Virus record (IMG/VR): IMGVR_UViG_3300009008_000023
Coordinates: 1 to 64,000 of that record
Direction: 5' to 3' (one strand)
Length of the DNA: 64,000 nt
From: a virus
Lineage: Duplodnaviria; Heunggongvirae; Uroviricota; Caudoviricetes
The translations under genes were made by a program, and so were the position numbers. The notes beneath the pieces were generated by a model, which was not told where the DNA came from, did not search any database, and saw only the letters and a program-made list of their open reading frames with translations. Numbering within the stretch: position 1 is the stretch's first letter; each line of letters begins with the position of its first letter. Of the stretch, positions 23,309 through 44,968 are shown piece by piece.

Positions 23309-23474
23309 ACATCCGACAGAGCAGGAAATTAAAAAGTGGTGCTCATGTAATATGTGTGGGCATCACTTTATTAAAGCTCCGAAAAAGAGCTCTAACCCCA
23401 TTTTAAAAGGAAAAAGATTTATTTGTCCAGAATGTAAATGGGAAAACACTCGTATGGTTCCAATAAATTATTAA
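23283..23474 (+). CDS. hypothetical zinc-ribbon protein (63 aa)
   Basis: CSCNMCGH...CPECK. Confidence 0.3.
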   Translation: MLGEQKLSKHPTEQEIKKWCSCNMCGHHFIKAPKKSSNPILKGKRFICPECKWENTRMVPINY

Positions 23475-23482
23475 GGAGATAT

Positions 23483-24739
23483 ATGGAATTAGTAATTACA
23501 ACAGAAAAATTTCCAATAAAACTATGGGCACGTGAGTCAGAAATAGAAGAAAGTGCATTACAACAATTAAAAGATGTGGCTAATATGCCATTTATACATA
23601 AGCATATTGCTGTAATGCCTGACGTACATACAGGTCTTGGTGCAACCATTGGGGCTGTTATTCCTACTAATGGAGCAATAATTCCTAGTGCAGTAGGCGT
23701 AGATATTGGGTGTGGTATGCACGCTATCAAACTCAATCTTACGTATAAAGCATTTATTCAACACTTAGTAAATAACGTGTTTCCTAACATTGTTTACAAT
23801 GACGATCTTACTCGCAATCTAATTGAGTCTGCAATTCCGCACGGACGAACAGATTATGGTGGAACAAATGATGTAGGCGCATGGCCAAAACAACGTATTC
23901 CTTTATCTGTAAAGGCAGTATACTATGAGAAACTTAATTTCGAAGTTACGAAGCATGAGATTCTTCGCAGACACCCAGGCTTACTTGCAGGATTTGTTAA
24001 CAGCGTTCGTCATCTTGGCACTCTTGGCACTGGCAATCATTTCATCGAATTAGCTAAAGATGAGAGTGATAGGGTGTGGCTTATTATCCATTCGGGCTCA
24101 CGTGGAATAGGTAATAGAATAGGTACATACTTTATTAAGCTTGCAAAAAAGATTAATAAGAAATGGCATATCGATCTACCTAATCCTGATCTAGCGTACT
24201 TCCCACAAGACACTCAAGAGTTTAAAGACTACTGGGAATGTATGAAGTGGGCACAAAAGTTTGCTCGCCTCAATCGTGAGCTAATGGCACAAAGTGTGCT
24301 AAATGAACTTTGGATAGCTTCTAATGAAATAGAAAAAGAGTATGACTGCCACCATAATTTTGCTGAGTGGGATCACCAAGGGAACACTAATTTTATAGTA
24401 ACACGTAAAGGAGCCACTCGTGCCAAGAAAGACGAGATCGGAATCATCCCTGGTTCAATGGGTGCAAAGTCATATATTGTTACCGGTAAGGGCAACATGG
24501 ATTCTTTTGCTTCTTGTTCTCACGGCGCAGGTAGAAAAATGTCTCGAAAGGTGGCTAACGCTACCTTCACAGCCGAAGACCTGGAAGAACAGACGCGTGG
24601 AGTCTCTTGTAGAAAAGATGGAGACTTATGTGATGAAGCGCCTGGAGCGTACAAGTCAATTGATGAAGTTATATCCTTACAAGAAGATCTAGTTGACATA
24701 AAACATACACTTAAACAGTTTGTTTGTGTGAAAGGCTAG
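23483..24739 (+). CDS. rtcB: RNA-splicing ligase RtcB (3'-phosphate/5'-OH RNA ligase)
   Basis: MPDVHTGLGATIG, GTLGTGNHFIE, CHHNF and SCSHGAGR signature motifs; RBS AAGGAG before ATG 23483. Confidence 0.9.
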   Translation: MELVITTEKFPIKLWARESEIEESALQQLKDVANMPFIHKHIAVMPDVHTGLGATIGAVIPTNGAIIPSAVGVDIGCGMHAIKLNLTYKAFIQHLVNNVFPNIVYNDDLTRNLIESAIPHGRTDYGGTNDVGAWPKQRIPLSVKAVYYEKLNFEVTKHEILRRHPGLLAGFVNSVRHLGTLGTGNHFIELAKDESDRVWLIIHSGSRGIGNRIGTYFIKLAKKINKKWHIDLPNPDLAYFPQDTQEFKDYWECMKWAQKFARLNRELMAQSVLNELWIASNEIEKEYDCHHNFAEWDHQGNTNFIVTRKGATRAKKDEIGIIPGSMGAKSYIVTGKGNMDSFASCSHGAGRKMSRKVANATFTAEDLEEQTRGVSCRKDGDLCDEAPGAYKSIDEVISLQEDLVDIKHTLKQFVCVKG

Positions 24740-33335: not shown

Positions 33336-33773
33336 ATGAACTGTATTGATTGTAAAAAGAAAATACAGCATAAATCTAAACGTTGTAGGACATGTTATTT
33401 AAAAACAGTAAAAAGCAATAATGGTAAGAGACTGGTTTGTAAAGAATGTGGAAAGAAATACACATATAGTAAGAAAAAAGGCCACACTCTTAGTTATTGT
33501 AACACATGTAAAACAAGATTAAGCCGTAAAAAGCTAAAATTAAAAGCAATCAAATATAAAGGTGGGGAGTGTAAATTATGTGGATATCGTAAAAATCCCA
33601 CAAGTTTATCTTTTCATCATATAGATTCATCTAAAAAAGAAGCTGAAATTTCAAGACTTATAATGTCTGTTAAGTGTTGGAACACAATTAAAAAAGAATT
33701 AGACAAATGTGTACTTTTATGTGCGAACTGTCACTTAGAAGTACATGCGGGTGTTACAGAATTGGGCCTCTAG
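33336..33773 (+). CDS. HNH endonuclease (free-standing)
   Basis: C-terminal LSFHHIDSSKKEAEIS...LLCANCHLEVH HNH motif; several CxxC pairs. Confidence 0.7.
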   Translation: MNCIDCKKKIQHKSKRCRTCYLKTVKSNNGKRLVCKECGKKYTYSKKKGHTLSYCNTCKTRLSRKKLKLKAIKYKGGECKLCGYRKNPTSLSFHHIDSSKKEAEISRLIMSVKCWNTIKKELDKCVLLCANCHLEVHAGVTELGL

Positions 33774-33840
33774 CTTACCTTGGTGCGAGCGGTTGGTTGA
33801 AGCCCAACAGGTAGTGGTTCGATTCCACTGGGGCCCACCA
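33764..33840 (+). tRNA. tRNA-Phe(GAA)
   Basis: Cloverleaf; anticodon loop TTGAAGC; T loop TTCGATT; CCA encoded; overlaps HNH stop codon. Confidence 0.7.
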
Positions 33841-33917
33841 AGGAGTATTCGCCTAGTCCGGTCTATGGCGCTGCCCTGTCGAGGCAGAATAACACGGGTT
33901 CAAATCCCGTATACTCC
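33841..33917 (+). tRNA. tRNA-Asp(GUC)
   Basis: Acceptor GGAGTAT/ATACTCC; anticodon loop CTGTCGA; T loop TTCAAAT. Confidence 0.75.
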
Positions 33918-34046
33918 GCCTGCCAATAATGGCACTTAGACTTTCAAGGAGAAAGACTATGACATAGGTACGTAACGTATTAAAACCTCCATGACCTTGT
34001 TTAAATTTTTAGACTAAAAACTTTAAACTTAAACAAAGGAAATAAC

Positions 34047-34412
34047 ATGGAACGTTATGAATACATTCTTGCTAAAAAGCAAGAATTAAAAAAGCTAGCG
34101 AAAGAAATCAGGCATTATAAACCTCGTCGTAAACAAGACAAACGTGGCGAAATGTCTCTCTGGCAAATCGAGTGTGAAATAGCTAAACGCAGGTATGAGT
34201 TTAGACACCAGCATATTGCGTACTGCCTCTTAAGAGGACGTGAAATGCACGAGATTGAAAACAAAACCAGAGACGATAACAAACCTAATGAGAGGTATAT
34301 TGATGCCCTACTAGCTGAATACGAAGAGGCTGTACGTCCTAGTGAGGACAGACTTGAAGAAGTCGAGCCCAGCATTACAAGCGGGACATGCCGTAGCACA
34401 GTTCATGCTTGA
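34047..34412 (+). CDS. hypothetical charged protein (121 aa)
   Basis: ORF; overlaps next ORF by 70 nt in another frame. Confidence 0.3.
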   Translation: MERYEYILAKKQELKKLAKEIRHYKPRRKQDKRGEMSLWQIECEIAKRRYEFRHQHIAYCLLRGREMHEIENKTRDDNKPNERYIDALLAEYEEAVRPSEDRLEEVEPSITSGTCRSTVHA

Positions 34413-34620
34413 ACATCCTGATTGCGAATGGAAAAATAGTTACCTCATCTATTTACGAGTTCGTTCTGAGAATGAACTCAACGAGTGGTTAAACAAATGC
34501 GTTGTCGATTCTAAGGTACTCATGTCAGACTTTTATGAGCCTGACTTAGACAATGAGCTAACAGCCATTGCGATATTTGGAATGAATGAAACGACTTTTA
34601 ATAGTTTAAGATTACTATAA
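34342..34620 (+). CDS. hypothetical protein (92 aa)
   Basis: ORF; globular-looking sequence. Confidence 0.3.
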   Translation: MRTDLKKSSPALQAGHAVAQFMLEHPDCEWKNSYLIYLRVRSENELNEWLNKCVVDSKVLMSDFYEPDLDNELTAIAIFGMNETTFNSLRLL

Positions 34621-34628
34621 GTCTGGTA

Positions 34629-34705
34629 GGCTCTATAGCTCAGTCTGGCGAGAGCGGCGGTCTCTAAAACCGTGTCAGTCGTGGGTTCAAATCCCACTGG
34701 GGCCT
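34629..34705 (+). tRNA. amber-suppressor tRNA, anticodon CUA (tRNA-Sup)
   Basis: Acceptor GGCTCTA/TGGGGCC; D arm GCTC...GAGC; anticodon stem GCGGT/ACCGT; loop C-U-CUA-A-A with U33 and A37; T arm GTGGGTTCAAATCCCAC. Confidence 0.65.
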
Positions 34706-34725
34706 CTTATCACAAAGGAGTAAGT

Positions 34726-34992
34726 ATGTGGGAACACATTAATAGAGAAGATGCCAAAAGGCACGTAAAGCCGGGATGGCATGGACTATTAGACGAAGTG
34801 TATGATAAAGTACCTGATGGTATAGAGATACAGGTAATCAAGGAAAAATTTGGTGGCTTAAGAATTTATACGTCACTAATAGATAAAGATAACCAAGACT
34901 TCGGACATTTTTTACTAGAGATCGAAAACAGAAGTAAAGAAATATATGAGTTTTGTGGCGAGCCAGCTACGCATTTCAAGATGATTGCATAA
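34726..34992 (+). CDS. hypothetical protein (88 aa)
   Basis: ATG 34726 after AAGGAG; the longer annotated ORF start lies inside the tRNA. Confidence 0.35.
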   Translation: MWEHINREDAKRHVKPGWHGLLDEVYDKVPDGIEIQVIKEKFGGLRIYTSLIDKDNQDFGHFLLEIENRSKEIYEFCGEPATHFKMIA

Positions 34993-35224
34993 TAGATTTA
35001 AAAGGTTATTATAAAGAAAAAGCAAGAGACCAAGAATTGTCAAGGCGGCAATCTAAGTTGCCTAATAAAATAAGAAAAGAGTAATATGAGAATTTATGCG
35101 GCAATACTTTATGGATTTATATGTACAGTCCTAATACCACACGGACACCCAAATTGGCAATCATTTTTAATAAGTTTTATTGGCTTATCTTATCTAATTT
35201 ATAAAATAGGGGAATATAAATAAT

Positions 35225-35767
35225 ATGACCTATATAATGGTAGACGTAGAGAGTGATGGTCAAATACCTGGGATCACTGATTATTCTATGGTATGTTTTG
35301 GAGCAGTTCTCGTACGAGACCCGTCACAAACATTCTACGGAACAACTAAACCAATATCAGAAAAGTGGGATCCACAAGCCCTTGCAATAAGCGGGTTCTC
35401 TCGTGAAGAGCATGAAGCTTTTGACGATCCTGCTGAAACAATGCTAAAGTTTAAAGAGTGGATTGAAAGTGTAGTAAGAGTGTTTCCTGATGGAAGTAAA
35501 GACCGTCCCCATTTTATCGCAGATAATAATGGGTATGATTTTGCTTTTATTAACTGGTACTTTCACCACTTTTTGGGAGAAAATCCTTTTGGACACAGCT
35601 CCCGTAACTTGGGTGATTTGTACAAAGGGTGCACGCGAAATATGCGTGGGTCCTTCAAAAAATTAAGAAAAACTAAACACACTCATAATCCTGTTGATGA
35701 TGCAATGGGTAATGTAGAAGCACTTCAAGCAATGATTGAAAAGTTTGATCTGAAAGGAAAATTCTAA
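35225..35767 (+). CDS. DEDDh 3'-5' exonuclease (DnaQ/RNase T-like)
   Basis: Exo I MVDVESDG; Exo III HNPVDDAMGN (HxAxxD). Confidence 0.65.
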   Translation: MTYIMVDVESDGQIPGITDYSMVCFGAVLVRDPSQTFYGTTKPISEKWDPQALAISGFSREEHEAFDDPAETMLKFKEWIESVVRVFPDGSKDRPHFIADNNGYDFAFINWYFHHFLGENPFGHSSRNLGDLYKGCTRNMRGSFKKLRKTKHTHNPVDDAMGNVEALQAMIEKFDLKGKF

Positions 35768-35961
35768 TGAACTCGAGTTCTAGTAGTTCTAGTGGAATCG
35801 GATTTGGCGGTTTATTAATCATTGTTTTTATTGTCCTCAAACTGACTGGAGTTATCGCCTGGTCGTGGTTGTGGGTTCTTAGTCCACTTTGGATTAGCCT
35901 TTTAATTGGTCTTATTATTGCAGCATTGATGCTATGGGGTTTCTCTCAATTAGGAAAATAA
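35767..35961 (+). CDS. small membrane protein (64 aa)
   Basis: Two TM helices. Confidence 0.3.
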   Translation: MNSSSSSSSGIGFGGLLIIVFIVLKLTGVIAWSWLWVLSPLWISLLIGLIIAALMLWGFSQLGK

Positions 35962-35969
35962 ACTAACGT

Positions 35970-36047
<78 letters not shown>

Positions 36048-36059
36048 TACTAACAACCC

Positions 36060-36251
36060 ATGGAGGTGAACATGAGCATAGATAAAGAATACAAGCAGCT
36101 ATTAATGGAATCTGGAGGCGATCCGCAAGCTCTTGCTGATCATGCTGAAGATCCTAATGCTCTTGTTGGGTCGCAAAATAAACGTGCGGTCAAAGTTCGT
36201 CATATCTTGAATGATATGGTGTGTTATGATCCGGATTATGATACGGAGTGA
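36060..36251 (+). CDS. hypothetical protein (63 aa)
   Basis: ORF. Confidence 0.3.
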   Translation: MEVNMSIDKEYKQLLMESGGDPQALADHAEDPNALVGSQNKRAVKVRHILNDMVCYDPDYDTE

Positions 36252-36493
36252 ATATGCCTGATTTAGACAGCATTCCTTGTGAATTTGAAGTTCCTGATGA
36301 AATCTTTGGTCCTAAAATACCAAAAGAATTTCAATCAGTTATAGCTGAACTCGATGGTAAAATCGAAAAGTTAATTAAGGAATTCGAAGTAAAACATAAA
36401 TTCATTATCGACACAGTATTTGTAGATAGATACATTGATAGTCCCTTTGGATTTATTAGCGTATCGTGCTCTGGATTCCCTTCAGAAAGTTAA
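36248..36493 (+). CDS. hypothetical protein (81 aa)
   Basis: ORF overlapping upstream stop. Confidence 0.3.
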   Translation: MNMPDLDSIPCEFEVPDEIFGPKIPKEFQSVIAELDGKIEKLIKEFEVKHKFIIDTVFVDRYIDSPFGFISVSCSGFPSES

Positions 36494-36570
36494 TGCCCCA
36501 CTAACTCAATTGGATAGAGTTGCGGCCTTCGAAGCCGAAAGTTGCCTGTTCGAGTCGGGCGTGGGGTACC
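36494..36570 (+). tRNA. tRNA-Arg(UCG)
   Basis: Acceptor GCCCCAC/GTGGGGT; anticodon loop CTTCGAA; T loop TTCGAGT; CCA encoded. Confidence 0.65.
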
Positions 36571-36586
36571 ATAAATAAGGAGCTAA

Positions 36587-36946
36587 ATGGAACATAGAAT
36601 TAAAGAGTTTAAGTTAAGATATCGTGTTGACGGTGATAATGAACCTGGCGGTACTAAAGGAACTCAAACAATAAAGCTTCCTTATAATAGCAGGGTAATG
36701 GGAATTGATTACTTCAATGCTACCCGCAACTCAAGGAAAAGTAGAGTACTATTATATGTACTCGTTCCAGGCTCAAATCTTCCAGACGAAGAGCGTGAAA
36801 TTACGCTTTATTATGATGACGCGCATTTAAATGATAACCCAGGGGAGTATTTAGGAACAATTACTCCAGACCAATGTAAAGACATTGGTCTGCCTATTCA
36901 TGTCTTTCTGGAAGAGCGAAAAGTAAAAAGTACTTTCGCAGAATAA
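36587..36946 (+). CDS. hypothetical protein (119 aa)
   Basis: ORF with AAGGAG RBS. Confidence 0.35.
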   Translation: MEHRIKEFKLRYRVDGDNEPGGTKGTQTIKLPYNSRVMGIDYFNATRNSRKSRVLLYVLVPGSNLPDEEREITLYYDDAHLNDNPGEYLGTITPDQCKDIGLPIHVFLEERKVKSTFAE

Positions 36947-37011
36947 ATTAAAGTGAGAAGTTCCTTACCGCACGAGGATTAAAGGGTAAATTGCGTTGCT
37001 CGCTTCTCTTT

Positions 37012-37099
37012 GCCAGAGTCCCATAGTGGCCGATTGGAGTACCCTTGTAAGGTACCAGGACTTAATTGCCTCGCATCGGTTCGAATCCGATCTCTGGCT
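37012..37099 (+). tRNA. atypical 88-nt tRNA with long variable arm and anticodon UGU (Thr-like)
   Basis: Acceptor GCCAGAG/CTCTGGC; Tyr-like D arm CCA-TAGTGGCCGAT-TGG; anticodon stem GTACC/GGTAC with loop CTTGTAA; 19-nt variable region; T arm ATCGGTTCGAATCCGAT. Confidence 0.55.
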
Positions 37100-37119
37100 C
37101 CTTTCATTAAGGAGAGTGA

Positions 37120-37701
37120 ATGAAAGTAACATTAGTACTGACAGCACTGCTGCTATCAATAACCAGCGCTTTTACGCTTGAACCTTTTAGGTTCTATGAT
37201 CACTTGGCCACAAGCCAAGACACTGTTCGAATACAAAATAAAGTATTTGGAAGTATAGAAAATCCTATAGTTGACGGTAATTATGGGATAATTGTCACTG
37301 ACACTCCAACTCATATTACAGGATGTACTTTCTATTTAGACGGTGGCCATGGAATTGGGGTATGGGGTGTGTATGATGACGTGTATTATTGTGTTATTAA
37401 AAACAACAATTTTGTGGTATTAGATTCTTTAAATCGTTATGTTATTAGAGTTGGACATGATTCGTCTGATGAGCCTTATACAGTTTATAATCCAATTATA
37501 ACTGGGAATGTCTTAGATTGTATTGAGGCTGACACGTATAAGCATAACCTTTTTGTAGGACATTGTATCAACCCAGTTGTTCAGTGGAACAGAGTAATGG
37601 GCTCTTCCCGCTCATTAATGCCTCGTGGCGAAATTGGCAACGCACCAGACTTTGACTCTGGTATCTCCTGGTTCGAACCCAGGCGGGGCATCCTGAATTA
37701 G
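37120..37701 (+). CDS. secreted protein with signal peptide; C-terminal 80 nt overlap tRNA-Gln
   Basis: AAGGAG RBS; signal peptide MKVTLVLTALLLSITSA; no stop until 37701. Confidence 0.45.
   Translation: MKVTLVLTALLLSITSAFTLEPFRFYDHLATSQDTVRIQNKVFGSIENPIVDGNYGIIVTDTPTHITGCTFYLDGGHGIGVWGVYDDVYYCVIKNNNFVVLDSLNRYVIRVGHDSSDEPYTVYNPIITGNVLDCIEADTYKHNLFVGHCINPVVQWNRVMGSSRSLMPRGEIGNAPDFDSGISWFEPRRGILN
37619..37691 (+). tRNA. tRNA-Gln(UUG)
   Basis: U1-A72 acceptor TGCCTCG/CGGGGCA; anticodon loop CTTTGAC; T arm CCTGGTTCGAACCCAGG. Confidence 0.65.
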
Positions 37702-37862
37702 TGGAGCGTGCATTGTATACAACGATGAACATTGCAGCTTATAGACTAGTGGAGTGTACACAAAGCTAGGTGCGGTGAACAGAGTGTAAAAACCTATGTC
37801 GCGGATAGGAATAAGCCTCAAACAACTTTGGTTGGTAGTATCCCACTAATTCACTTTTTTAC

Positions 37863-37895
37863 TTGACAAATACTAACTTGATTTCTTATATTTAG
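37863..37895 (+). promoter_or_regulatory. candidate sigma70-type promoter upstream of Hsp20 gene
   Basis: TTGACA-aatactaacttgatttc-TTATAT. Confidence 0.35.
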
Positions 37896-37963
37896 TTACA
37901 CAGCTGGATCTTATGAACGGCAGTAACTATCCACACCTTTCGGGTGGAATATAGGAGATCAAT

Positions 37964-38491
37964 ATGACTCGAAGAACACATCGTGTAAGCTTTGATAGCT
38001 TACTACCAGATTTATTTAACGAAGCACAGAACAGTGCTTTCTTAGCAACAGAAACATTATTTGATCGTGCAATACGGGACATGTTTCCTGATGCACATAA
38101 ACAACTTGGATGCTCTCTTGTAACTAAAGGGGCATATCCAAAAACTAACGTTCTTTCTTTAGAAAAAGAATTTAAGATTGAAGCGGCGGTTCCCGGTCTT
38201 ACTCGAGAAGATATTTCTATCGAGACTAAACAGACCGATATGGGGGTCGTTTTAACTATTTCTGGGGACAAGCAAGATGAAGAAAATCTTGGAGATGTAC
38301 GCACTAATTTTTATGTGTATCATGAACTCAAGAAATCTAAGTTTGCTCGTTCCTTTTTAATTCATGATAAAGAAAAAGTAGAATTAGATAAAATTGACGC
38401 CTCAATTGAAAATGGAATTCTAACTATTAGTATTCCTAAAACTGAGGCAGAGATTAAGAAAAACGAAATTAATAAAATTAACATAAAATAA
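37964..38491 (+). CDS. small heat-shock protein (Hsp20/alpha-crystallin family)
   Basis: Alpha-crystallin domain pattern: EAAVPGLTREDISIE...LTISGDK...FARSFLI...IDASIENGILTISIPK. Confidence 0.8.
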   Translation: MTRRTHRVSFDSLLPDLFNEAQNSAFLATETLFDRAIRDMFPDAHKQLGCSLVTKGAYPKTNVLSLEKEFKIEAAVPGLTREDISIETKQTDMGVVLTISGDKQDEENLGDVRTNFYVYHELKKSKFARSFLIHDKEKVELDKIDASIENGILTISIPKTEAEIKKNEINKINIK

Positions 38492-38519
38492 CACGCTGAT
38501 TTAGATCCAGCTGTGTTTT

Positions 38520-38594
38520 GGTCTGTTCGTCTAGCCCGGTCTAGGACACCTGACTTTCTCTCAGGCGACACGAGTTCAAATCTCGTACAGACTG
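38520..38594 (+). tRNA. tRNA-Glu(UUC)
   Basis: Acceptor GGTCTGT/ACAGACT; anticodon loop CTTTCTC; T loop TTCAAAT. Confidence 0.7.
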
Positions 38595-38600
38595 CCTTTT

Positions 38601-38678
38601 GGCCGAGTACGCAAACAATGAGAAGCGGCGGAAGTTGATCGCCCGTGAGTCCAGGTGTAAGCCCTGGCTCGGCCACCA
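38601..38678 (+). pseudogene. degenerate tRNA-like element (pseudo-tRNA; GUU-like anticodon, non-canonical T loop)
   Basis: Perfect acceptor GGCCGAG/CTCGGCC + A + CCA, but T loop TGTAAGC lacks T54-Psi55-C56; weak D stem; anticodon loop AAGTTGA lacks U33. Confidence 0.4.
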
Positions 38679-38684
38679 AATTAG

Positions 38685-38761
38685 AGCGCGGTAGAGTAGT
38701 GGTCCAACTCGGAGGTCTCATAAGCCTCTATTCGCGGGTTCGAATCCCGCCTGCGCCACCA
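38685..38761 (+). tRNA. tRNA-Met/Ile2(CAU)
   Basis: Anticodon loop CTCATAA; T arm GCGGGTTCGAATCCCGC; CCA encoded; possible 1-72 A/C mismatch. Confidence 0.65.
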
Positions 38762-39010
38762 TTTTTCAAGCACTAGTCTTGTAAACTAGGAACGCTGAAA
38801 TGTTACATGTGTTGGTAAAGTACGCTCAGACGTACCAGACTAGAACTATTACACCTGGCGAATCCTCACTAGATTCGTTTGCAAAATAGTCAACACCGTA
38901 ACAACTATGTCATCCCTCCTTTGTGAGGTTGCCCTTGGTTAGCGTGGGGATGTAATTGCATAAATCGCTAATCCAACTTTAAGACAGAAGACAGAAAGTA
39001 GAAAATATTA

Positions 39011-39904
39011 ATGTTAGTAAAAATTATAGATAAAAGTAAAGAAGCACTAATTCAGTGCGAACAGGCCGAATGGCAAGGTCTTCAAGACCATAACACCAAT
39101 TCCGTTATTTTGAATTTAGGCTCTAAACACGAGCCCCTGGTGTTTTCAAAAACCCAGTCTACGGCTGAAATTTATGTGATGAATGATAATGGGAAGACAA
39201 TTGATACAGTTAGATTCCCTTTGCATACTGGTACATATTCTACGGAGACGACAGAAATCCTTTGTATTATGGACCGATCTTCGTCAATGAGTTCAATTAT
39301 GCCCGAAGCGGTGAACGCATTTAATGAATTTGTACAGAAACAGAAAGCACTTCCGGGTAAAGCAAATCTTACCCTAGTTGCATTCGACAACCACTATGAA
39401 GTAAAGTATGATAGTATAGATTTAAATAGTGTGCCTTTGCTCACTATAAATCAAGTACAACCACGAGGAATGACCGCTCTTAATGATGCGATTGGTAGAA
39501 CCATTAATAGAGCAAAAGATTCACGCAAGACCATTGTTTTAATACAGACTGATGGGGAAGAAAACTGCAGCCAAGAATTTGATAATGAGCAAGTTAAAGC
39601 ACTCATTAATGCTAAAAAAGAGTTGGGCTGGGAATTTATCTTCATTGGTGCTGGTATAGATGCGTTTGATGTTGGACATAAAAATTTAGGCATTGATGTG
39701 GCAAGTTGTTACAATGTATCACATGACGCTATTGGAATGGCTGATTATACAAATACCATGACTTTTAGAACAATGGCATATCGAGATGGTAGTATTACAT
39801 CAGCAGACCTTGATATGGGAGATATTGCGTCACTTACAGTGACTGATGAAGTTCCTGAGCAATTTGAATTGAATTTAGACGACATTACTGTTGAAAAAGA
39901 ATAA
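39011..39904 (+). CDS. von Willebrand factor A (vWA) domain protein
   Basis: MIDAS motif DRSSSM (DxSxS); downstream T and D residues in vWA order. Confidence 0.7.
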   Translation: MLVKIIDKSKEALIQCEQAEWQGLQDHNTNSVILNLGSKHEPLVFSKTQSTAEIYVMNDNGKTIDTVRFPLHTGTYSTETTEILCIMDRSSSMSSIMPEAVNAFNEFVQKQKALPGKANLTLVAFDNHYEVKYDSIDLNSVPLLTINQVQPRGMTALNDAIGRTINRAKDSRKTIVLIQTDGEENCSQEFDNEQVKALINAKKELGWEFIFIGAGIDAFDVGHKNLGIDVASCYNVSHDAIGMADYTNTMTFRTMAYRDGSITSADLDMGDIASLTVTDEVPEQFELNLDDITVEKE

Positions 39905-40320
39905 AAGTACTGGTACTGTGTCCTTTGAACCGCAGTTAAACAGAGCGCAAGTGGCTTGCGGACATTTATGAGGAAAGCCACACCAGGAATTATTCACGCT
40001 GGGCCACTCCTCTCTGAGGGGTGTGTCCTCCATAAGCGCTACTCACTTCAGGCGGGTAGTTTCCCAAAGAGAGCTTTGGGAATTTAAACTCGGGTAAAAA
40101 GCCCCATAAAACTTTTTACAGAACGAGGTATCTATGAAATATTTCATATTATTCGTAGATATTTTCTGGTGGTTGAGAGATTGATCACCTTATAGATTGA
40201 AAGGTAAAAAAAGGTTTATAGTGCCGTTAGCAACCCAGAAACCTTGCTCGCGCATAGCGAAAGACCCAGGCGGATCTATGCGATAATTTCCGCGCTTGCT
40301 GTTAGGCTAATCTATTATTA
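39905..40320 (+). other. about 415-nt ORF-free structured intergenic region (possible sRNA)
   Basis: No ORF; several stable hairpins, e.g. TTCCCAAAG-agag-CTTTGGGAA. Confidence 0.3.
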
Positions 40321-40346
40321 AGGGGAGTCTAGTACTCCCCTTTTTT
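40321..40346 (+). terminator. rho-independent terminator
   Basis: AAGGGGAGT-ctagt-ACTCCCC plus T6. Confidence 0.75.
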
Positions 40347-40351
40347 ATTGC

Positions 40352-40424
40352 CGGGGAGTAGCTCAATTGGAGGAGCGGAACGTTTGGGACGTTCAGGGTG
40401 CAGGTTCGAGCCCTGCCTCTCCGA
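40352..40424 (+). tRNA. tRNA-Pro(UGG)
   Basis: C1-G72 acceptor CGGGGAG/CTCTCCG; anticodon loop TTTGGGA; T loop TTCGAGC. Confidence 0.7.
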
Positions 40425-40497
40425 TATATTTTTATTTAGTTCTTGACTTCGAATACTATTATACGTACGTTAAAGTATAAAGTAAAAGGAGTTAAGA

Positions 40498-41175
40498 ATG
40501 GCAAAACCAAATGTAAAATGTTTACAATGTGGTAAACATTTTTATAAAAAACCAATAAACATTAAATTATACCCACAACACTTTTGCAGTCGAAATTGTT
40601 TTAATAAGTACATTAAAGGTCCAGATTGTTTTTGTTTAAATTGTGGAAAGCAATTACTTAAAAAAGATCAAAAGAAATTTTGCTCAAAATCGTGCTCTGC
40701 TACTTATAACAATCAATTACGAGACAAAAGTGTTTATGATAAAGTAATTAGATCTCGTGGGGAAACAAGGCAAACAGAGCACACTAAAAAATTAAAAAAA
40801 CGAAAGTCTTTAAATAGGTGTAAAAATTGTGGTACACAAATTTGGCCAGAAAGCACATATTGCACGTCATGCAAGGACCATTTAGTTCGAATTCAATACT
40901 TAGAACGTACCCTTAAAGAAGTTACTAACAAAGATACAGTAAAGTATTGGCAACAAGTTAGAACTAATGCCCGTAGTATGATGAAACACGAATACAAAAA
41001 AGAACCGAAATGTGCAGTATGTGGGTATAAAACATATGTGGAAGTATGCCATATTAAACCAATAAAAGAATTTGAAAAAACCGCAAAAATTAAAGAGATA
41101 AACAGTAAAGATAACCTTGTGTATCTTTGCCCAAATCACCATAAAGAACTAGATTTGGGATTAATAAAACTGTGA
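40498..41175 (+). CDS. HNH endonuclease with N-terminal zinc fingers
   Basis: C-terminal CHIKPIKEF...NLVYLCPNHH; five CxxC pairs. Confidence 0.6.
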   Translation: MAKPNVKCLQCGKHFYKKPINIKLYPQHFCSRNCFNKYIKGPDCFCLNCGKQLLKKDQKKFCSKSCSATYNNQLRDKSVYDKVIRSRGETRQTEHTKKLKKRKSLNRCKNCGTQIWPESTYCTSCKDHLVRIQYLERTLKEVTNKDTVKYWQQVRTNARSMMKHEYKKEPKCAVCGYKTYVEVCHIKPIKEFEKTAKIKEINSKDNLVYLCPNHHKELDLGLIKL

Positions 41176-41200
41176 AAGTAAAACGAAACTAAGAGGAAAT

Positions 41201-41683
41201 ATGAGTGATACAAAAGCAATACACGTATTATCAGGAGGCTTTGATCCTCTACATGTAGGCCATCTACGTATGATAAAAGCTGCACATGCCTTGCAAGACC
41301 ATTGCCGGTATGGTAGCCAGCTAATTATTGGATTGAATTCTGATGATTGGCTAAGACGTAAAAAAGGTGCTAATTTTATAAACTTTGCACACCGTGCAGA
41401 ATTAATCGGTGGTTATAAAGAAGTTGATGAAGTTGTTTCGTTTGATGATTCAGACGGCACAGCTAAAGAGTTATTACGTATACTTCGAGCAAGATTTCCC
41501 GCAGATGAGTATAATATAATTTTTTGTAATGGTGGAGATCGAGTAGAAGGACATGTTCCTGAAGGAGAGTTAGCCGAAGAGTTAGATATTGAGTTTCTGT
41601 ACGGGATAGGTGGTGGAAAGATAGAAAGCTCTTCAGAACTGGTGACTAAATATTTTGCCGAAATCAATAAAAATAGCGCCTGA
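41201..41683 (+). CDS. nucleotidyltransferase of the HxGH cytidylyltransferase-like superfamily
   Basis: SGGFDPLHVGHLRMI (HxGH) motif near N-terminus. Confidence 0.6.
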   Translation: MSDTKAIHVLSGGFDPLHVGHLRMIKAAHALQDHCRYGSQLIIGLNSDDWLRRKKGANFINFAHRAELIGGYKEVDEVVSFDDSDGTAKELLRILRARFPADEYNIIFCNGGDRVEGHVPEGELAEELDIEFLYGIGGGKIESSSELVTKYFAEINKNSA

Positions 41684-42029
41684 GGATGTTAAAGAGCTCG
41701 TTGAGCTTTTAACTAACTCAGTAAAAATAACAGACGAAACTAAATCAAATACAGTAACACTTATTAAAGACTTGTATGAACAAGTAATTATATTACGCCT
41801 AGAACTAGAATTACAAAGAAAACATCAGCAACTTAGTGACTTTGAACATATTTTATACAAAAAAATGTACCTTATTAAATATGACACGATGGATTTACTA
41901 ACAATTAATACAGCCTTAGAAGGTGTAGAAAAAGCTATACAATGGGCAAAGAACGACGCGAGAGACTTAAAGAAGCCAATACCTGAAAACATAAACCCGG
42001 AGGATTATATTGACTACTTCAACGACTAG
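41655..42029 (+). CDS. hypothetical protein (124 aa), start uncertain
   Basis: ORF overlapping upstream gene. Confidence 0.3.
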   Translation: MPKSIKIAPEDVKELVELLTNSVKITDETKSNTVTLIKDLYEQVIILRLELELQRKHQQLSDFEHILYKKMYLIKYDTMDLLTINTALEGVEKAIQWAKNDARDLKKPIPENINPEDYIDYFND

Positions 42030-42393
42030 ACTTAATTTCGATCTAGCAGAAATGGAAATGCTAGATCGCCTCCACAAACTTTCACGAGATAATAAAGATA
42101 TGCTTCAGTCTGTAGGAGAAGGAGTGTGTTTTTATTGTGGGAAAACTTGTAAATACGAAGACGTTAAGGAATGGGTAGGCAAACATAGTCAAACGGGAAT
42201 GTGCCCTCATTGTGGCATTGACTCAATTATGCCTGTGTATGCGCCTTACATCAAGTCTGAAAAGATTGTCGGAATGATGATGGTTCGTTGGTTCACGACT
42301 GTTAATGAAGATGATACGTTAACTGTTGAACCTGATGCCCTCATCCCAGAACGCTGGAAACAATGGTATAAGAACTATACCGTCGAAGATTAA
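42010..42393 (+). CDS. hypothetical Cys-containing protein (127 aa)
   Basis: CFYCGK...CPHCG zinc-ribbon-like. Confidence 0.35.
   Translation: MTTSTTRLNFDLAEMEMLDRLHKLSRDNKDMLQSVGEGVCFYCGKTCKYEDVKEWVGKHSQTGMCPHCGIDSIMPVYAPYIKSEKIVGMMMVRWFTTVNEDDTLTVEPDALIPERWKQWYKNYTVED
42361..42380 (+). promoter_or_regulatory. phage promoter motif (caaTGGTATAAGAACTATACC) inside CDS 42010..42393
   Basis: Core match within coding sequence; could serve downstream gene 42474 or be fortuitous. Confidence 0.3.
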
Positions 42394-42473
42394 TTAAAAT
42401 TTATTAACATAAACATCTAAGGAGGTGCAGTCATGACTATTACAAAACTATAGATACCTATAGGAGGTAAATC

Positions 42474-42692
42474 ATGGCTGACCAACAGCAGAAAAAGATC
42501 CCTAAGGGCGGTAAGTGCTTACGTCGTTGTGGCAAAGGACATTACAAGGAGTATCGTAATGAGAACCGCAAGCTCAACAACAAAGCTCGTCGCCTTGCTC
42601 GTCGCATCCGTAACTACAAGAACCCTATCGGGTTCCTCAACGGAGTGAATGACGATCTGCGTGTTAAAGTTATCAAAATCCTCGGCTTATAG
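42474..42692 (+). CDS. hypothetical small basic protein (72 aa)
   Basis: GGAGG RBS; Arg/Lys-rich. Confidence 0.35.
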   Translation: MADQQQKKIPKGGKCLRRCGKGHYKEYRNENRKLNNKARRLARRIRNYKNPIGFLNGVNDDLRVKVIKILGL

Positions 42693-42702
42693 CCTAGGTG
42701 AA

Positions 42703-42784
42703 GCGGGTGTCCTCTAATGGCCAGGAGACTAGCCTTCCAAGCTAGCGCAGAAATGCATTGAGAGTTCGAATCTCTTCACCCGCT
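42703..42784 (+). tRNA. atypical 82-nt tRNA, anticodon UCC (Gly-like) with 14-nt GAAA-capped variable hairpin
   Basis: Acceptor GCGGGTG/CACCCGC; D arm CTCT-AATGGCCA-GGAG; anticodon stem CTAGC/GCTAG, loop CTTCCAA; variable CGCA-GAAA-TGCATT; T arm GAGAGTTCGAATCTCTT. Confidence 0.55.
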
Positions 42785-42804
42785 CCTACACAAAAGGAGA
42801 AAGA

Positions 42805-43083
42805 ATGTTATCAGGACAAGGAAACGAGTTAATAGATACCCAAGAACCGCTTTATAAAATTTACGATGAAGATACTGGGTTATTCTCTTCAGGTGGAAAT
42901 TCTGGGTGGAGTAGAGCAGGGAAAGTATGGACTGCCAGAACTTTAAAGCTACATTTAGCGAACGGGCGCTCAAACTATCCTGATTCTGCACGTATTATAG
43001 AACTTACGTTAAACGCAGCAGCGGTGCTGCCAGTTACACGTGAAGCACTAGACAGACATACTCTGTATGCTAGATTTGATTGA
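42805..43083 (+). CDS. hypothetical protein (92 aa)
   Basis: AAGGAG RBS. Confidence 0.35.
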   Translation: MLSGQGNELIDTQEPLYKIYDEDTGLFSSGGNSGWSRAGKVWTARTLKLHLANGRSNYPDSARIIELTLNAAAVLPVTREALDRHTLYARFD

Positions 43084-43154
43084 ACCCATAGCCAAGTGAT
43101 TAAGGCAGTGGATTGCAACCCCACTATGCGCTGGTTTAAATCCAGCTGGGTTCT
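43082..43154 (+). tRNA. tRNA-Cys(GCA)
   Basis: Acceptor GAACCCA/TGGGTTC; anticodon loop TTGCAAC; T arm GCTGGTTTAAATCCAGC. Confidence 0.6.
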
Positions 43155-43306
43155 CCTTAACTTATAAGGAGCTTAAATGAATTGGATAAAAATTTTAGGT
43201 TGGGTTAGAGTTATTATGTATGATATAATTTATGCCAGTTTATATTTTATGTTCTTACACTGGTTTTTTACACGAATTGTGTGGCCTTCGTTAGCCCCGT
43301 AAATAT

Positions 43307-43358
43307 GGCGAATGCGTCTGCAGCGTGGAAAAGCGGGTTCGATTCCCGTCATTCGCCC
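43307..43358 (+). pseudogene. truncated mini tRNA-like element (acceptor + T arm only, about 52 nt)
   Basis: GGCGAAT...GCGGGTTCGATTCCCGT-c-ATTCGCC with only 19 nt where D and anticodon arms should be. Confidence 0.4.
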
Positions 43359-43359
43359 T

Positions 43360-43433
43360 GAGGCCGTAGCTCAAATGGTTAGAGCCCTGGATTGTGGATC
43401 CAGAGGTTGTGGATTCGAATTCCACCGGTCTCC
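43360..43433 (+). tRNA. tRNA-His(GUG)
   Basis: Anticodon loop TTGTGGA; T arm GTGGATTCGAATTCCAC; C73. Confidence 0.7.
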
Positions 43434-43437
43434 CCAA

Positions 43438-43509
43438 GGGCCTGTAGCTCCAACGGTAGAGCTCCTGCTTTGCAAGCAGGATGTTACCAGTTCGAATCTG
43501 GTCAGGTCC
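43438..43509 (+). tRNA. tRNA-Ala(UGC)
   Basis: G3-U70 in acceptor GGGCCTG/CAGGTCC; anticodon loop TTTGCAA; T loop TTCGAAT; A73. Confidence 0.8.
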
Positions 43510-43691
43510 ACCGAATTAAACAAAGAGGTAAAGAAGATGTATAATAAATTCATAAGAAGTATCTTATGCTTTTTACGTATTCATGGTCCTCGATCACCGC
43601 TGTATAAAACAGACAGAGGCGTGTATAATCAGTGCCGCTGGTGTGATAAACCAATACTGGTATATAAATTTGATCAACCAAAAAAATATTT

Positions 43692-43916
43692 GTGACAAAA
43701 ATTGATGTAGGTACAAAGTTAGAATTTAAACGTAATTTGTGGGACTCCCCACGAGTTGCTAATCGAATTGATACTGATGGAACAGAGTTTGTAGTAACAA
43801 ACTTAGAATACGTTGAAGGCAACATTAATGGCATGTGGTTATTATCTAAAAAATCTGGAAAAGGCATTAGATTTACCATGCATGAAGTTTATAGCTTATT
43901 CAAAATAAAGAGGTAA
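43692..43916 (+). CDS. hypothetical protein (74 aa)
   Basis: ORF. Confidence 0.3.
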   Translation: MTKIDVGTKLEFKRNLWDSPRVANRIDTDGTEFVVTNLEYVEGNINGMWLLSKKSGKGIRFTMHEVYSLFKIKR

Positions 43917-43918
43917 AA

Positions 43919-44965
43919 ATGGAAAGAGCGTTGGCGAGCATTCAAAGAATTGATGCTCTCGATCCTATTGAAGGTGCCGACCGAATTGAAGTAGCCACCA
44001 TCTTAGGGTGGAAAGTAATTGTTAAAAAAGGTGAGTTTCAAGTCGGTGATAAATGTATCTATTGTGAAATAGATAGTGTATTACCTGCAGATAACCCTGA
44101 ATTTGAGTTTATGCAAGCTCGAAGTAAAGGCCGTGTAAAGACCATGCGTATGCGTGGTGTGCTGTCTCAGGGGATTGCATTCCCTATGAAAGTATTACAC
44201 GATCAACTAGTGGGCGAATTACAATGGATTATGCCCGCTGATGTTAATCAGATTGATCAAGATGTCACTGACCTTTTAGGCATCACAAAATACGAACCGC
44301 CTGCTGACTTCAAACAAGGTGCAAGCAAAGGTACATTCCCTGGGTTTATTCCCAAAACAGACGAACTCCGACTTCAGTCTAAGCCCGAACTACTAGAAGA
44401 ACTTGCAGGTGAGCGTTACGTTATTACTATAAAAGTAGATGGAACATCTGCCACTTTCTTTTGGCATGATGGTGAGTTTGGCGTGTGTTCACGTAATATG
44501 GAAAAGAAGCTTGATGGAAACAGTGTTTATTCACGAATTGCTAAAGAATACAAACTCCAAGAAATTCTTGAGGACATTGAACGCGAAACGGGCATTGAAT
44601 TAGCACTCCAAGGCGAAATTGCTGGACCTGGAATTCAGAAGAATCCTTTGGGTCTTAAAGAGCTCCAATTATTCTTATTCACTGGTTTTAACATCCGAGA
44701 AGGTAAATACTTAGATCATTTAGAGTTCAGTGAATTATGCACTCGTTGGGAACTGCCAATGGTATATGTAGCAGAGTATGGAGCTGAATTTAAACACACA
44801 CTTGAGTCTCTTCTAGAGCTTGCTAAAGGTAAGTACCTAGGAACAGATAATAACCGTGAAGGTATCGTTATCCGCCCGTTCCGTGAAATGGTTAGTAAAC
44901 GTTTACATGGTAGACTTTCTTTTAAAGTAATAAATAATGATTTTCTTGAAAAAGGAGAAGAGTAG
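43919..44965 (+). CDS. ATP-dependent polynucleotide (RNA/DNA) ligase-like nucleotidyltransferase
   Basis: Motif I ITIKVDGTSATF (KxDG); downstream motifs partially recognisable. Confidence 0.5.
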   Translation: MERALASIQRIDALDPIEGADRIEVATILGWKVIVKKGEFQVGDKCIYCEIDSVLPADNPEFEFMQARSKGRVKTMRMRGVLSQGIAFPMKVLHDQLVGELQWIMPADVNQIDQDVTDLLGITKYEPPADFKQGASKGTFPGFIPKTDELRLQSKPELLEELAGERYVITIKVDGTSATFFWHDGEFGVCSRNMEKKLDGNSVYSRIAKEYKLQEILEDIERETGIELALQGEIAGPGIQKNPLGLKELQLFLFTGFNIREGKYLDHLEFSELCTRWELPMVYVAEYGAEFKHTLESLLELAKGKYLGTDNNREGIVIRPFREMVSKRLHGRLSFKVINNDFLEKGEE

Positions 44966-44968
44966 TAC

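What the first reader, a model, noticed from the sequence alone, without database searches (positions are those of the whole stretch)
34629..34705. Amber-suppressor tRNA (anticodon CUA)
A well-formed 77-nt cloverleaf has a 7/7-paired acceptor stem, a D arm GCTC...GAGC and a T arm GTGGGTTCAAATCCCAC. The anticodon stem is GCGGT/ACCGT with loop C-U-C-U-A-A-A, giving U33, C34-U35-A36 and A37. A tRNA reading UAG is not needed under the standard code. Phage suppressor tRNAs are associated with stop-codon reassignment or programmed readthrough, used to time late-gene expression in some large phages. Alternatively it may suppress amber codons in host defence or toxin genes. The long ORFs in this window are intact under the standard code, so any UAG reassignment would have to be limited, or lie outside the window.
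Basis: seen in the sequence. Interest (0 to 1): 0.75.

Follow-up and report, generated by a model that had tools for sequence, protein, structure and literature searches.

The report
Phage amber-suppressor tRNA, no recoding seen
This is a real phage tRNA gene that reads the UAG stop codon and is kept in a related phage, but every part of the genome I could read still uses UAG as an ordinary stop, so it is a known kind of element whose job here is unknown.

Summary
Window 34629-34705 (+) is a canonical 77-nt class-I tRNA with anticodon CUA at 34664-34666. ARAGORN calls it, Rfam scores it 58.6 bits, and its lowest-energy fold is the cloverleaf.

It is the third gene of a 22-tRNA array in an uncultured large phage from metagenomes. 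That phage has a fused 2017-aa RNA polymerase, RtcB and an RNA ligase.

The anticodon arm is the tRNA-Trp arm with C35 changed to U. At least 57 different phage CUA tRNAs in IMG/VR share this arm. The rest of the molecule (G1-C72, U73) fits no isotype clearly, and it is not tRNA-Pyl.

A relative 15-30% diverged in DNA keeps the gene at the same array position, with a compensatory acceptor-stem change. That relative also has separate Tyr and Trp tRNAs, which this phage lacks.

I found no sign of UAG reassignment in about 93 kb, which includes the polymerase, portal, endolysin and spike tip. TAG ends 23-24% of genes and swaps with TAA between orthologues.

Most likely it is a functional, partial suppressor in a standard-code phage. 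Its target and the amino acid it carries are unknown. It is a new member of a known kind and of moderate interest.

The parts
34629..34705 (+). tRNA gene with anticodon CUA (amber suppressor). It is class I with a 7-nt variable loop, G1-C72 and U73. Only C74 of the 3' CCA is encoded.
   Evidence: ARAGORN. Rfam RF00005 at 58.6 bits, with the alignment placing CUA at the anticodon. Cloverleaf is the minimum-free-energy fold. The sequence was read directly.
34664..34666 (+). Anticodon C34-U35-A36, complementary to UAG.
34657..34673 (+). Anticodon arm GCGGU-CUCUAAA-ACCGU. It equals the tRNA-Trp arm with C35 changed to U.
   Evidence: It matches 16 of 17 positions of a phage tRNA-Trp(CCA) arm (L139; alignments). 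It matches 14 of 17 positions of the E. coli tRNA-Trp arm, whose sequence I verified. The 16-nt core occurs in more than 119 IMG/VR contigs and in 57 distinct CUA tRNAs.
33764..54301 (+). Array of 22 tRNA genes interspersed with small ORFs. The suppressor is the third gene. There is one or two tRNAs for each of 18 amino acids, and none for Trp or Tyr.
   Evidence: ARAGORN. Rfam finds 20 of the 22. The syntenic array in relative L224 runs Phe-Asp-Sup(CUA)-Tyr-Ile-Arg-Thr-Trp-Gln-....
34354..34620 (+). Upstream ORF (88 aa as called in public assemblies). It ends 8 nt before the tRNA on the same strand, so the tRNA sits inside a polycistronic unit.
   Evidence: Gene calls in L001 and the sequence. 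No promoter-like or terminator-like site lies directly next to the tRNA on the + strand.
34726..34992 (+). Downstream ORF (88 aa) with an AAGGAG ribosome-binding site, starting 20 nt after the tRNA. In relative L224 this position holds a tRNA-Tyr instead.
23438..24739 (+). Context only: RtcB RNA ligase (tRNA repair or splicing ligase). Its stop codon is TAG.
   Evidence: Pfam PF01139, E = 3.4e-115. Stop codon.
43919..44965 (+). Context only: RNA ligase inside the array. It ends in TAG, and in this phage the next ORF (199 aa) follows in frame.
   Evidence: Pfam PF09414 and PF21189. Junction sequence. The in-frame arrangement is not kept in relatives.

Best explanation
This is a working tRNA gene of a large, uncultured phage that decodes the UAG stop codon. 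It operates in a phage that otherwise uses the standard genetic code.

Shown here:
- It is a canonical cloverleaf with anticodon CUA.
- Its anticodon arm is that of tRNA-Trp with C35 changed to U. Many unrelated phage CUA tRNAs share this arm.
- It lies inside a co-oriented array of tRNAs and small ORFs.
- A diverged relative keeps it at the same position, with base changes that preserve pairing.
- UAG is a frequent, ordinary terminator in the 93 kb I could read.

Inferred, not shown:
- It is transcribed with the array and cut out by RNase P and 3' processing.
- The CCA end is completed by a CCA-adding enzyme, because only C74 is encoded.
- A host synthetase charges it. By precedent, U35 draws GlnRS or LysRS, and Trp is unlikely because the G73 and A1-U72 identity elements are missing.
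- It then competes with release factor 1 at UAG, giving partial read-through rather than a change of code.

What the phage gains is unknown. The options I consider most likely are low-level read-through of particular UAG-terminated genes, or decoding of a few in-frame UAGs in the unread half of the genome.
For: - The tRNA and its anticodon are real.
- The arm is Trp-type.
- The same 16-nt arm core is found in more than 119 IMG/VR contigs. Of 80 fetched loci, 71 hold a CUA tRNA, giving 57 distinct sequences with very different bodies.
- The D-stem plus arm string occurs in only 1 of 185,579 species genomes, so the element is phage-specific and not host-derived.
- In relative L224 (RNA ligase 79% aa identity, DNA 70-85%) the CUA tRNA is at the same place after Phe-Asp. 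C3-G70 has become A3-U70, which is compensatory, and U6.G67 has become U6-A67. The other changes are in the D loop and the variable loop. The anticodon arm, T arm and U73 are unchanged.
- That relative also has separate Tyr and Trp tRNAs, so the suppressor is not simply a mutated copy of this lineage's Trp gene. It is kept in a phage that lacks both.
- Standard code: there are no TAG-split ORFs in the window or flanks, and read-through gain for TAG is no greater than for TGA. TAG ends 23-24% of genes. Extension lengths after TAG resemble those after TAA. The portal, endolysin, spike tip and RNA polymerase are intact. TAG and TAA swap between orthologues.
- This situation is common. Only about 11 of 60 IMG/VR loci that carry a CUA tRNA with this arm show a local TAG-recoding signal.
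- Published precedent: the amber suppressor derived from tRNA-Trp is charged with Gln, and U35 drives GlnRS and LysRS recognition (PMC9976931). Standard-code relatives of recoded phages can carry suppressor tRNAs (bioRxiv 10.1101/2021.08.26.457843).
Against: - Nothing here shows expression, charging or suppression.
- A strong suppressor would extend about a quarter of the phage's proteins (median 11 codons), yet TAG is not avoided. So either activity is weak or the extensions are tolerated. This remains unexplained.
- The tRNA is about 91% identical between the two phages, against 85% for the surrounding 736-bp block. Conservation is therefore only modestly above background and rests on a single relative.
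- G1-C72 with U73 fits neither GlnRS, which prefers a weak 1-72 pair and G73, nor LysRS, which prefers A73. The amino acid is therefore a guess.
- At least 84 kb of the genome was not examined.
Confidence: 0.6

Rival explanations
1. The tRNA belongs to a code switch of the kind described for crAss-like and Lak phages (code 15). Under this reading, late genes in the unread part of the genome contain in-frame UAG codons that are read only once the suppressor has accumulated.
For: Phage CUA tRNAs are strongly associated with TAG recoding, and early regions of recoded phages can be in standard code. About 11 of 60 IMG/VR loci with the same anticodon arm show a local TAG-recoding signal. At least 84 kb of the genome, probably holding the major capsid, terminase and tail genes, was not read (contig arithmetic).
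Against: The late and lysis genes I could read are intact: spike-tip module, portal, amidase endolysin and a giant protein of more than 1243 aa. Several of them end in TAG. TAG makes up 23-24% of stops and is not depleted, whereas the published route to recoding starts with depletion. The same holds in the relatives. No RF2 or synthetase was seen in the precomputed Pfam lists.
Confidence: 0.12
2. The tRNA drives programmed read-through of one or a few specific UAG stops to make extended or fused proteins. The best candidate is the endolysin, whose TAG is followed directly and in frame by the ATG of a 352-aa ORF. Read-through there would give a 550-aa fusion.
For: The endolysin-TAG-ATG in-frame junction is present in this phage and in a relative with 85% portal identity. 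The TAG of the 90-aa gene two genes upstream is also kept in both.
Against: The 352-aa ORF has its own strong Shine-Dalgarno sequence and ATG, so it does not need read-through. One adjacent gene pair in three is in frame by chance. The similar RNA ligase-TAG-199-aa junction is not kept in relatives. The TAG extension of the HNH gene at 31695-32168 adds only 2 bits to its family match. Other TAG stops swap with TAA between orthologues. TAG shows one in-frame neighbour pair in the window, against several for TAA.
Confidence: 0.1
3. The gene does not act as a suppressor. It could be a neutral passenger of a fast-turning-over tRNA array that is poorly charged or not expressed. Alternatively it could serve another purpose, such as a decoy for a host anticodon nuclease, a primer or a processing signal.
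For: Array content turns over quickly: Tyr, Trp and a second Ser are present in L224 and absent here. The acceptor end (G1-C72, U73) matches no clear synthetase identity set. TAG is not avoided by the phage. The phage carries tRNA-repair enzymes, RtcB and an RNA ligase, which points to conflict over tRNA cleavage.
Against: All canonical tRNA features are intact, including U33, A37-A38 and the T loop. A compensatory change keeps the acceptor stem paired in the relative. The arm is the one shared by many phage CUA tRNAs, including ones in recoded loci.
Confidence: 0.15
4. It is a pyrrolysine tRNA, as ARAGORN labels it.
For: Only the CUA anticodon supports this.
Against: By my own knowledge, tRNA-Pyl has a 6-bp anticodon stem, a 3-nt variable loop, a short D loop without G18 G19 and no canonical T loop. 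This tRNA has a 5-bp anticodon stem, a 7-nt variable loop, a 10-nt D loop with GG and a UUCAAAU T loop. No Pyl synthesis or PylS domains appear in the Pfam lists.
Confidence: 0.01

Closest known systems
Suppressor tRNA(CUA) genes of TAG-recoded phages (crAss-like, Lak and other 'code 15' phages; Borges et al., bioRxiv 10.1101/2021.08.26.457843; Peters et al., PMC9523058)
   Same: It is a phage-encoded CUA tRNA lying among standard-coded genes. It has the same 16-nt anticodon-arm core as CUA tRNAs found in IMG/VR loci that do show TAG recoding.
   Different: No in-frame TAG was found in 93 kb that includes lysis and structural genes. TAG is not depleted (23-24% of stops). No RF2 or synthetase was seen. 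The source is open-environment metagenomes rather than gut, and the phage belongs to a different lineage whose nearest cultured relatives have about 33% portal identity.
Suppressor tRNAs in standard-code relatives of recoded phages (proposed precursors of recoding)
   Same: A suppressor tRNA is present in a genome that still reads as code 11.
   Different: In that model the stop codon concerned is already rare. Here TAG is as common as TGA, and the gene persists across 15-30% DNA divergence without any sign of recoding.
E. coli su7 (amber suppressor derived from tRNA-Trp by C35 to U)
   Same: The anticodon arm is the tRNA-Trp arm with U35. It matches 14 of 17 positions of E. coli trpT and 16 of 17 of a phage tRNA-Trp. 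A36-A37-A38 is present. The published suppressor is charged with Gln (PMC9976931).
   Different: The acceptor end is G1-C72 with U73, not A1-U72 with G73. With the arm masked, the body is no closer to Trp than to Asn, Ala, Lys or Met tRNAs. The relative has its own, different tRNA-Trp. This is therefore not a recent point mutant of the lineage's Trp gene.
'tRNA-Pyl(cta)' annotated in Sinorhizobium phage Phosso (PV764938.1)
   Same: It is the best suppressor match in GenBank phages, 84% identical over 69 nt. It has the same arm, G1-C72 and a non-G discriminator.
   Different: It has a different acceptor sequence, A73 and an encoded CCA. The host is a soil rhizobium and the genome is 469 kb. Whether the two share ancestry or converged is unresolved.

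Membership tests
Canonical elongator tRNA (Rfam RF00005) | Cloverleaf scoring above the family's gathering threshold, with the anticodon loop placed by the covariance model. | tested here: met
   58.6 bits against a threshold of 29, covering model positions 1-71. The loop CUCUAAA aligns to the anticodon loop. ARAGORN agrees.
Canonical elongator tRNA (Rfam RF00005) | Conserved core nucleotides: U8, A14, G18 G19, U33, purine 37 and the T-loop UUCNANU. | tested here: met
   Read directly from the sequence: U8, A14, GG in the D loop, U33, A37 and UUCAAAU.
Amber suppressor tRNA (functional definition) | Anticodon CUA. | tested here: met
   Window 34664-34666.
Amber suppressor tRNA (functional definition) | The tRNA is aminoacylated and inserts an amino acid at UAG in vivo. 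| not testable with these tools
   This needs a reporter assay or mass spectrometry.
Phage stop-codon recoding system (code 15, TAG read as Gln) | In-frame TAG codons in conserved phage genes, especially structural and lysis genes. | tested here: not met
   No TAG-split ORFs in about 93 kb. The portal, endolysin, spike-tip module and RNA polymerase are intact.
Phage stop-codon recoding system (code 15, TAG read as Gln) | TAG rare or absent as a terminator. | tested here: not met
   TAG is 23-24% of stops here and 7 of 35 in relative L224.
Phage stop-codon recoding system (code 15, TAG read as Gln) | Accessory code-change genes (RF2, aminoacyl-tRNA synthetase). These are found in only some members. 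| tested here: not met
   None appear in the precomputed or scanned Pfam hits for the 93 kb. This feature is not obligatory for the family.
tRNA-Trp-derived suppressor (su7 type) | tRNA-Trp anticodon arm with C35 changed to U. | tested here: met
   16 of 17 positions match the L139 phage tRNA-Trp arm and 14 of 17 match E. coli trpT.
tRNA-Trp-derived suppressor (su7 type) | Bacterial Trp acceptor identity: G73 and A1-U72 (PMC9976931). | tested here: not met
   The tRNA has G1-C72 and U73. With the arm masked the body shows no Trp preference.
tRNA-Gln-derived suppressor (supE type) | A weak 1-72 pair (U1-A72) and G73. | tested here: not met
   The tRNA has G1-C72 and U73. By contrast, 27 of the 57 IMG/VR CUA tRNAs with the same arm start with U.
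tRNA-Pyl | Atypical structure: 6-bp anticodon stem, 3-nt variable loop, short D loop without GG and no canonical T loop (my own knowledge). | tested here: not met
   The tRNA has a 5-bp anticodon stem, a 7-nt variable loop, a 10-nt D loop with GG and a UUCAAAU T loop.

The most novel reading that the evidence does not exclude
The suppressor is kept because it acts on specific, conserved UAG stops in a standard-code phage. The best candidate is the endolysin stop, which is followed directly and in frame by a 352-aa ORF in two relatives. A tRNA-dependent fraction of endolysin fusion protein could then time or localise lysis. This would be a targeted read-through switch rather than a code change, in a lineage where the suppressor outlasts the Tyr and Trp tRNAs.
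Probability: 0.1. Interest if true: 0.7.

Novelty: new member of a known kind. Interest (0 to 1): 0.35.

Why it matters
Phage suppressor tRNAs are usually explained as tools for switching the genetic code late in infection. Here a well-formed amber suppressor persists across a diverged pair of large environmental phages. Both terminate about a quarter of their genes with UAG, and their visible lysis and structural genes are not recoded. The gene is retained where the Tyr and Trp tRNAs are absent.

If the full genomes confirm this, the case argues that suppressor tRNAs have a role in standard-code phages beyond being a step towards recoding. Many phage CUA tRNAs with unrelated bodies share one Trp-type anticodon arm. 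This suggests that the arm, and not the body, is what is selected. That could help in recognising natural suppressors and in designing efficient ones.

Tried and rejected
1. RNA ligase fusion. The RNA ligase (43919-44965) ends in TAG with the next 199-aa ORF in frame. I rejected this as a read-through fusion because in both relatives the next gene overlaps by 1 nt in another frame.
2. HNH endonuclease extension. The gene at 31695-32168 ends in TAG exactly where its PHROG match stops (position 157 of 245). Translating through the TAG adds only 2 bits, so I rejected it.
3. A recently mutated Trp gene replacing the lineage's own. Rejected, because relative L224 has both the CUA tRNA and a separate, different tRNA-Trp with G73.
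4. A Trp-like body. BLAST against GenBank phages gave tRNA-Trp as the top annotated hit. Masking the anticodon arm removes the preference, so only the arm is Trp-like.
5. Close relatives in GenBank phages or IMG/VR. None were found by DNA. One 31% VWA hit had no useful tRNA. An acceptor-stem pattern found only an Asn tRNA in an unrelated array.
6. The metagenome scan with the RNA ligase returned only homologues of 50% identity or less, none of which had a CUA tRNA. The VWA protein was not a useful marker for relatives.
7. Walking further along the genome was blocked, because only window proteins or returned homologues may be looked up. One relative's contig had no DNA available.
8. The nonsense variant in the 352-aa late gene of one assembly is TGA, not TAG, so it is irrelevant to amber suppression.
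9. No HDV-like or theta ribozyme, and no further tRNA, lies next to the gene in the sensitive Rfam search.
10. No E. coli tRNA is similar enough to be found by blastn.

Full report
**1. Observation**

The sequence at window 34629-34705 (+) reads GGCUCUA-UA-GCUC-AGUCUGGCGA-GAGC-G-GCGGU-CUCUAAA-ACCGU-GUCAGUC-GUGGG-UUCAAAU-CCCAC-UGGGGCC-U. ARAGORN calls a tRNA there with anticodon cta. Its 'Pyl' label is only its name for that anticodon. The Rfam tRNA model scores 58.6 bits against a gathering score of 29, with E = 4.4e-10 for the window. It aligns CUCUAAA to the anticodon loop, so the anticodon is C34-U35-A36 at 34664-34666 and is not shifted. The minimum-free-energy fold of the 77 nt is the cloverleaf. 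Two of the seven acceptor pairs are G-U, the variable loop has 7 nt, the discriminator is U73, and only C74 of the CCA end is encoded.

**2. Setting**

The gene is the third of 22 tRNA genes at 33764-54301, all on the + strand and interspersed with small ORFs and HNH endonuclease genes. The array supplies 18 amino acids and has no tRNA for Trp or Tyr. None turns up in the sensitive Rfam search or in the 10 kb on either side.

The window belongs to an uncultured large phage with these features:
- a fused 2017-aa beta/beta'-like RNA polymerase
- RtcB, an RNA ligase and a sigma factor
- NAD-salvage genes, ThyX and a dCMP-deaminase-like protein
- a MoxR/VWA pair
- a spike-tip module

No GenBank phage is close in DNA. 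The nearest cultured portals, from Vibrio phages D181, D148 and D69 and Salmonella phage Arash, are 30-33% identical. Virtually identical contigs occur in several metagenome assemblies. Two of these overlap the window and together span at least 177 kb. Contigs of relatives reach about 216 kb.

**3. What kind of tRNA it is**

The best matches among GenBank phages are tRNA-Trp(CCA) genes of Streptomyces, Caulobacter, Mycobacterium and Agrobacterium phages, plus a 'tRNA-Pyl(cta)' of Sinorhizobium phage Phosso.

The resemblance is concentrated in the anticodon arm. GCGGU-CUCUAAA-ACCGU differs from a phage tRNA-Trp arm only at position 35. It matches 14 of 17 positions of the E. coli tRNA-Trp arm, whose sequence I verified. 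With the arm masked, the nearest bodies are Asn, Trp, Ala, Lys and Met tRNAs with no clear preference. The acceptor end (G1-C72, U73) lacks the bacterial Trp determinants (G73, A1-U72) and the Gln ones (weak 1-72 pair, G73) (PMC9976931). It has none of the structural peculiarities of tRNA-Pyl.

The 16-nt core of the arm occurs in more than 119 IMG/VR contigs. Of 80 fetched loci, 71 hold a CUA tRNA. This gives 57 distinct sequences with very different bodies:
- 27 start with U
- 22 have long variable arms
- among those with an encoded CCA, the discriminator is mostly G, sometimes A and once U

The D-stem plus arm string occurs in only one of 185,579 species genomes. So this is one member of a large, phage-specific population of CUA tRNAs that share a Trp-type anticodon arm. 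The classic E. coli suppressor with this arm is charged with glutamine. U35 is what GlnRS and LysRS read. On that precedent Gln or Lys is the likeliest cargo, but this is inference only.

**4. Conservation**

A relative, L224 (Logan SRR31802803_2823), has an RNA ligase 79% identical in protein and DNA 70-85% identical. Its array is syntenic: Phe-Asp-Sup(CUA)-Tyr-Ile-Arg-Thr-Trp-Gln-Glu-Met-Pro-Gly-Cys-His-Ala-[RNA ligase]-Ser-Ser-Leu-Asn-Met.

The CUA tRNA sits at the same place. Compared with the window copy:
- C3-G70 has become A3-U70, a compensatory change
- U6.G67 has become U6-A67
- two D-loop bases differ
- the variable loop is 4 nt instead of 7
- the anticodon arm, T arm and U73 are identical

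This pattern fits a tRNA under structural constraint. The evidence is limited, however. It rests on one relative, and the tRNA is about 91% identical against 85% for the flanking block.

The relative also has Tyr, directly after the suppressor, and a separate Trp tRNA with G73. The suppressor is therefore not this lineage's Trp gene with a point mutation. The window phage keeps it while lacking both Tyr and Trp.

**5. Is UAG reassigned?**

Nothing I could read supports reassignment.
- Treating TAG as sense lengthens ORFs no more than treating TGA as sense does.
- Only one pair of ORFs of at least 70 codons is joined by a TAG, and none is in the flanks.
- TAG ends 23-24% of genes at every length cut-off, about as often as TGA. 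These include RtcB, the RNA ligase and a 408-aa late gene.
- Extensions to the next in-frame stop after TAG (median 11 codons) resemble those after TAA.
- To the right of the window lie a portal, an amidase endolysin, a giant protein and glycosyltransferases. None has an in-frame TAG.
- Between orthologues, TAG is sometimes kept and sometimes replaced by TAA, in both the array region and the head and lysis region. This is how an ordinary terminator behaves.
- No release factor or synthetase appears in the Pfam lists.
- Among IMG/VR loci that carry a CUA tRNA with this arm, only about 11 of 60 show a local recoding signal by the same crude measure. A suppressor in a locally standard-code context is therefore common.

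**6. Candidate targets**

Three leads were followed.
- RNA ligase-TAG with an in-frame 199-aa ORF: not conserved, so rejected.
- The HNH gene at 31695-32168, whose family match stops at its TAG: read-through adds only 2 bits, so rejected.
- Endolysin-TAG-ATG with an in-frame 352-aa ORF: conserved in a relative with 85% portal identity. However, the downstream ORF has its own strong ribosome-binding site, and in-frame neighbours are expected by chance in a third of cases. This lead remains an untested possibility.

**7. Mechanism and verdict**

Shown here:
- a canonical CUA tRNA with a Trp-type arm
- location inside a polycistronic array, with no flanking promoter-like or terminator-like site on the + strand
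- conservation with a compensatory change
- standard code in 93 kb

Inferred:
- processing from the array transcript, followed by CCA addition
- charging by a host synthetase, probably Gln or Lys
- competition with RF1 at UAG, giving partial read-through

What the phage gains is unknown. I put about 0.6 on 'functional partial suppressor in a standard-code phage', 0.12 on recoding of unread late genes, 0.1 on targeted read-through and 0.15 on no decoding role. Suppressor tRNAs in phages, including standard-code ones, are already described. This is therefore a new member of a known kind. Two points are of moderate interest: its persistence without TAG depletion, and the widely shared anticodon arm.

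**8. Limits**

- There was no tRNAscan-SE isotype scoring.
- At least 84 kb of the genome was unread, because look-ups are restricted.
- Only one informative relative was found for the tRNA itself.
- Gene calls for stop-codon statistics are my own crude ORF-based calls, cross-checked against the public gene calls only for the flanking regions.

Noticed in passing
window 30754-31238 (+): A full-length match to GOLLD RNA (RF02032): 81.3 bits, below the gathering score of 150, E = 7.5e-20, covering model positions 1-416. It lies about 2.5 kb upstream of the tRNA array, in a stretch with only short ORFs that lack ribosome-binding sites. Several conserved motifs align, but the pseudoknot does not. 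By my own knowledge, GOLLD RNAs sit in phages next to tRNA genes.
   Followed up: partly
window 37012-37101, 42703-42786, 51265-51348 (+): The Thr, Gly and Asn tRNAs are 84-90 nt long because of 9-15 extra nt in the variable region. In Gly (GCAGAAAUGC) and Asn (GGAGAAAUCC) this forms a 3-bp stem with a GAAA loop. The orthologues in relative L224 are of normal length (74-75 nt), whereas its Gln tRNA is 85 nt against 75 nt here. Of the IMG/VR CUA tRNAs sharing the arm, 22 of 57 are likewise long (82 nt or more), several with ...CUGAAG...-type inserts in the variable region.
   Followed up: partly
window 47620-48651 (+): A 343-aa adenylosuccinate-synthetase homologue. It is short for a PurA and its best PHROG is phrog_1211, '2-aminooxy adenylosuccinate synthetase', which is PurZ-like. 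This could point to a 2-aminoadenine (Z) genome. The gene is conserved in relatives.
   Followed up: no
L008 13068-13994 (about 3 kb right of the window end): A 308-aa reverse transcriptase (RVT_1) lies downstream of the MoxR/VWA pair and is conserved in relative L226. It may belong to a diversity-generating retroelement or a retron. No template or variable repeats were looked for.
   Followed up: no
window 55236-61298 (-): A single 2017-2020-aa ORF combines Rpb2-like (beta) and Rpb1-like (beta') RNA polymerase domains. It is a fused multisubunit-type polymerase sitting directly after the tRNA array.
   Followed up: no
L141 8086-9144 compared with L142 (about 11 kb right of the window end): One assembly has a TGA nonsense codon at residue 83 of the 352-aa ORF next to the endolysin. 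The other assembly has TTA (Leu) there. This is either a population variant or a sequencing error.
   Followed up: partly
window 13501-16978 (+): An NAD-salvage cluster: an NMNAT/NUDIX fusion (350 aa), NAMPT_N (148 aa) and NAPRTase (308 aa).
   Followed up: no
L017 about 9581-9682 (window about 673): Scaffold_303 carries an extra stretch of about 100 bp inside the 408-aa late gene relative to the window and other assemblies, so that gene is not called there. This may be an assembly artefact or a variant.
   Followed up: no
portal homologues P0034, P0044, P0045, P0049, P0053, P0054: Several portal homologues of this phage family are about 1000 aa long and carry LAGLIDADG or intein domains (PF14528, PF14890). 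These appear to be intein-containing portal genes.
   Followed up: no
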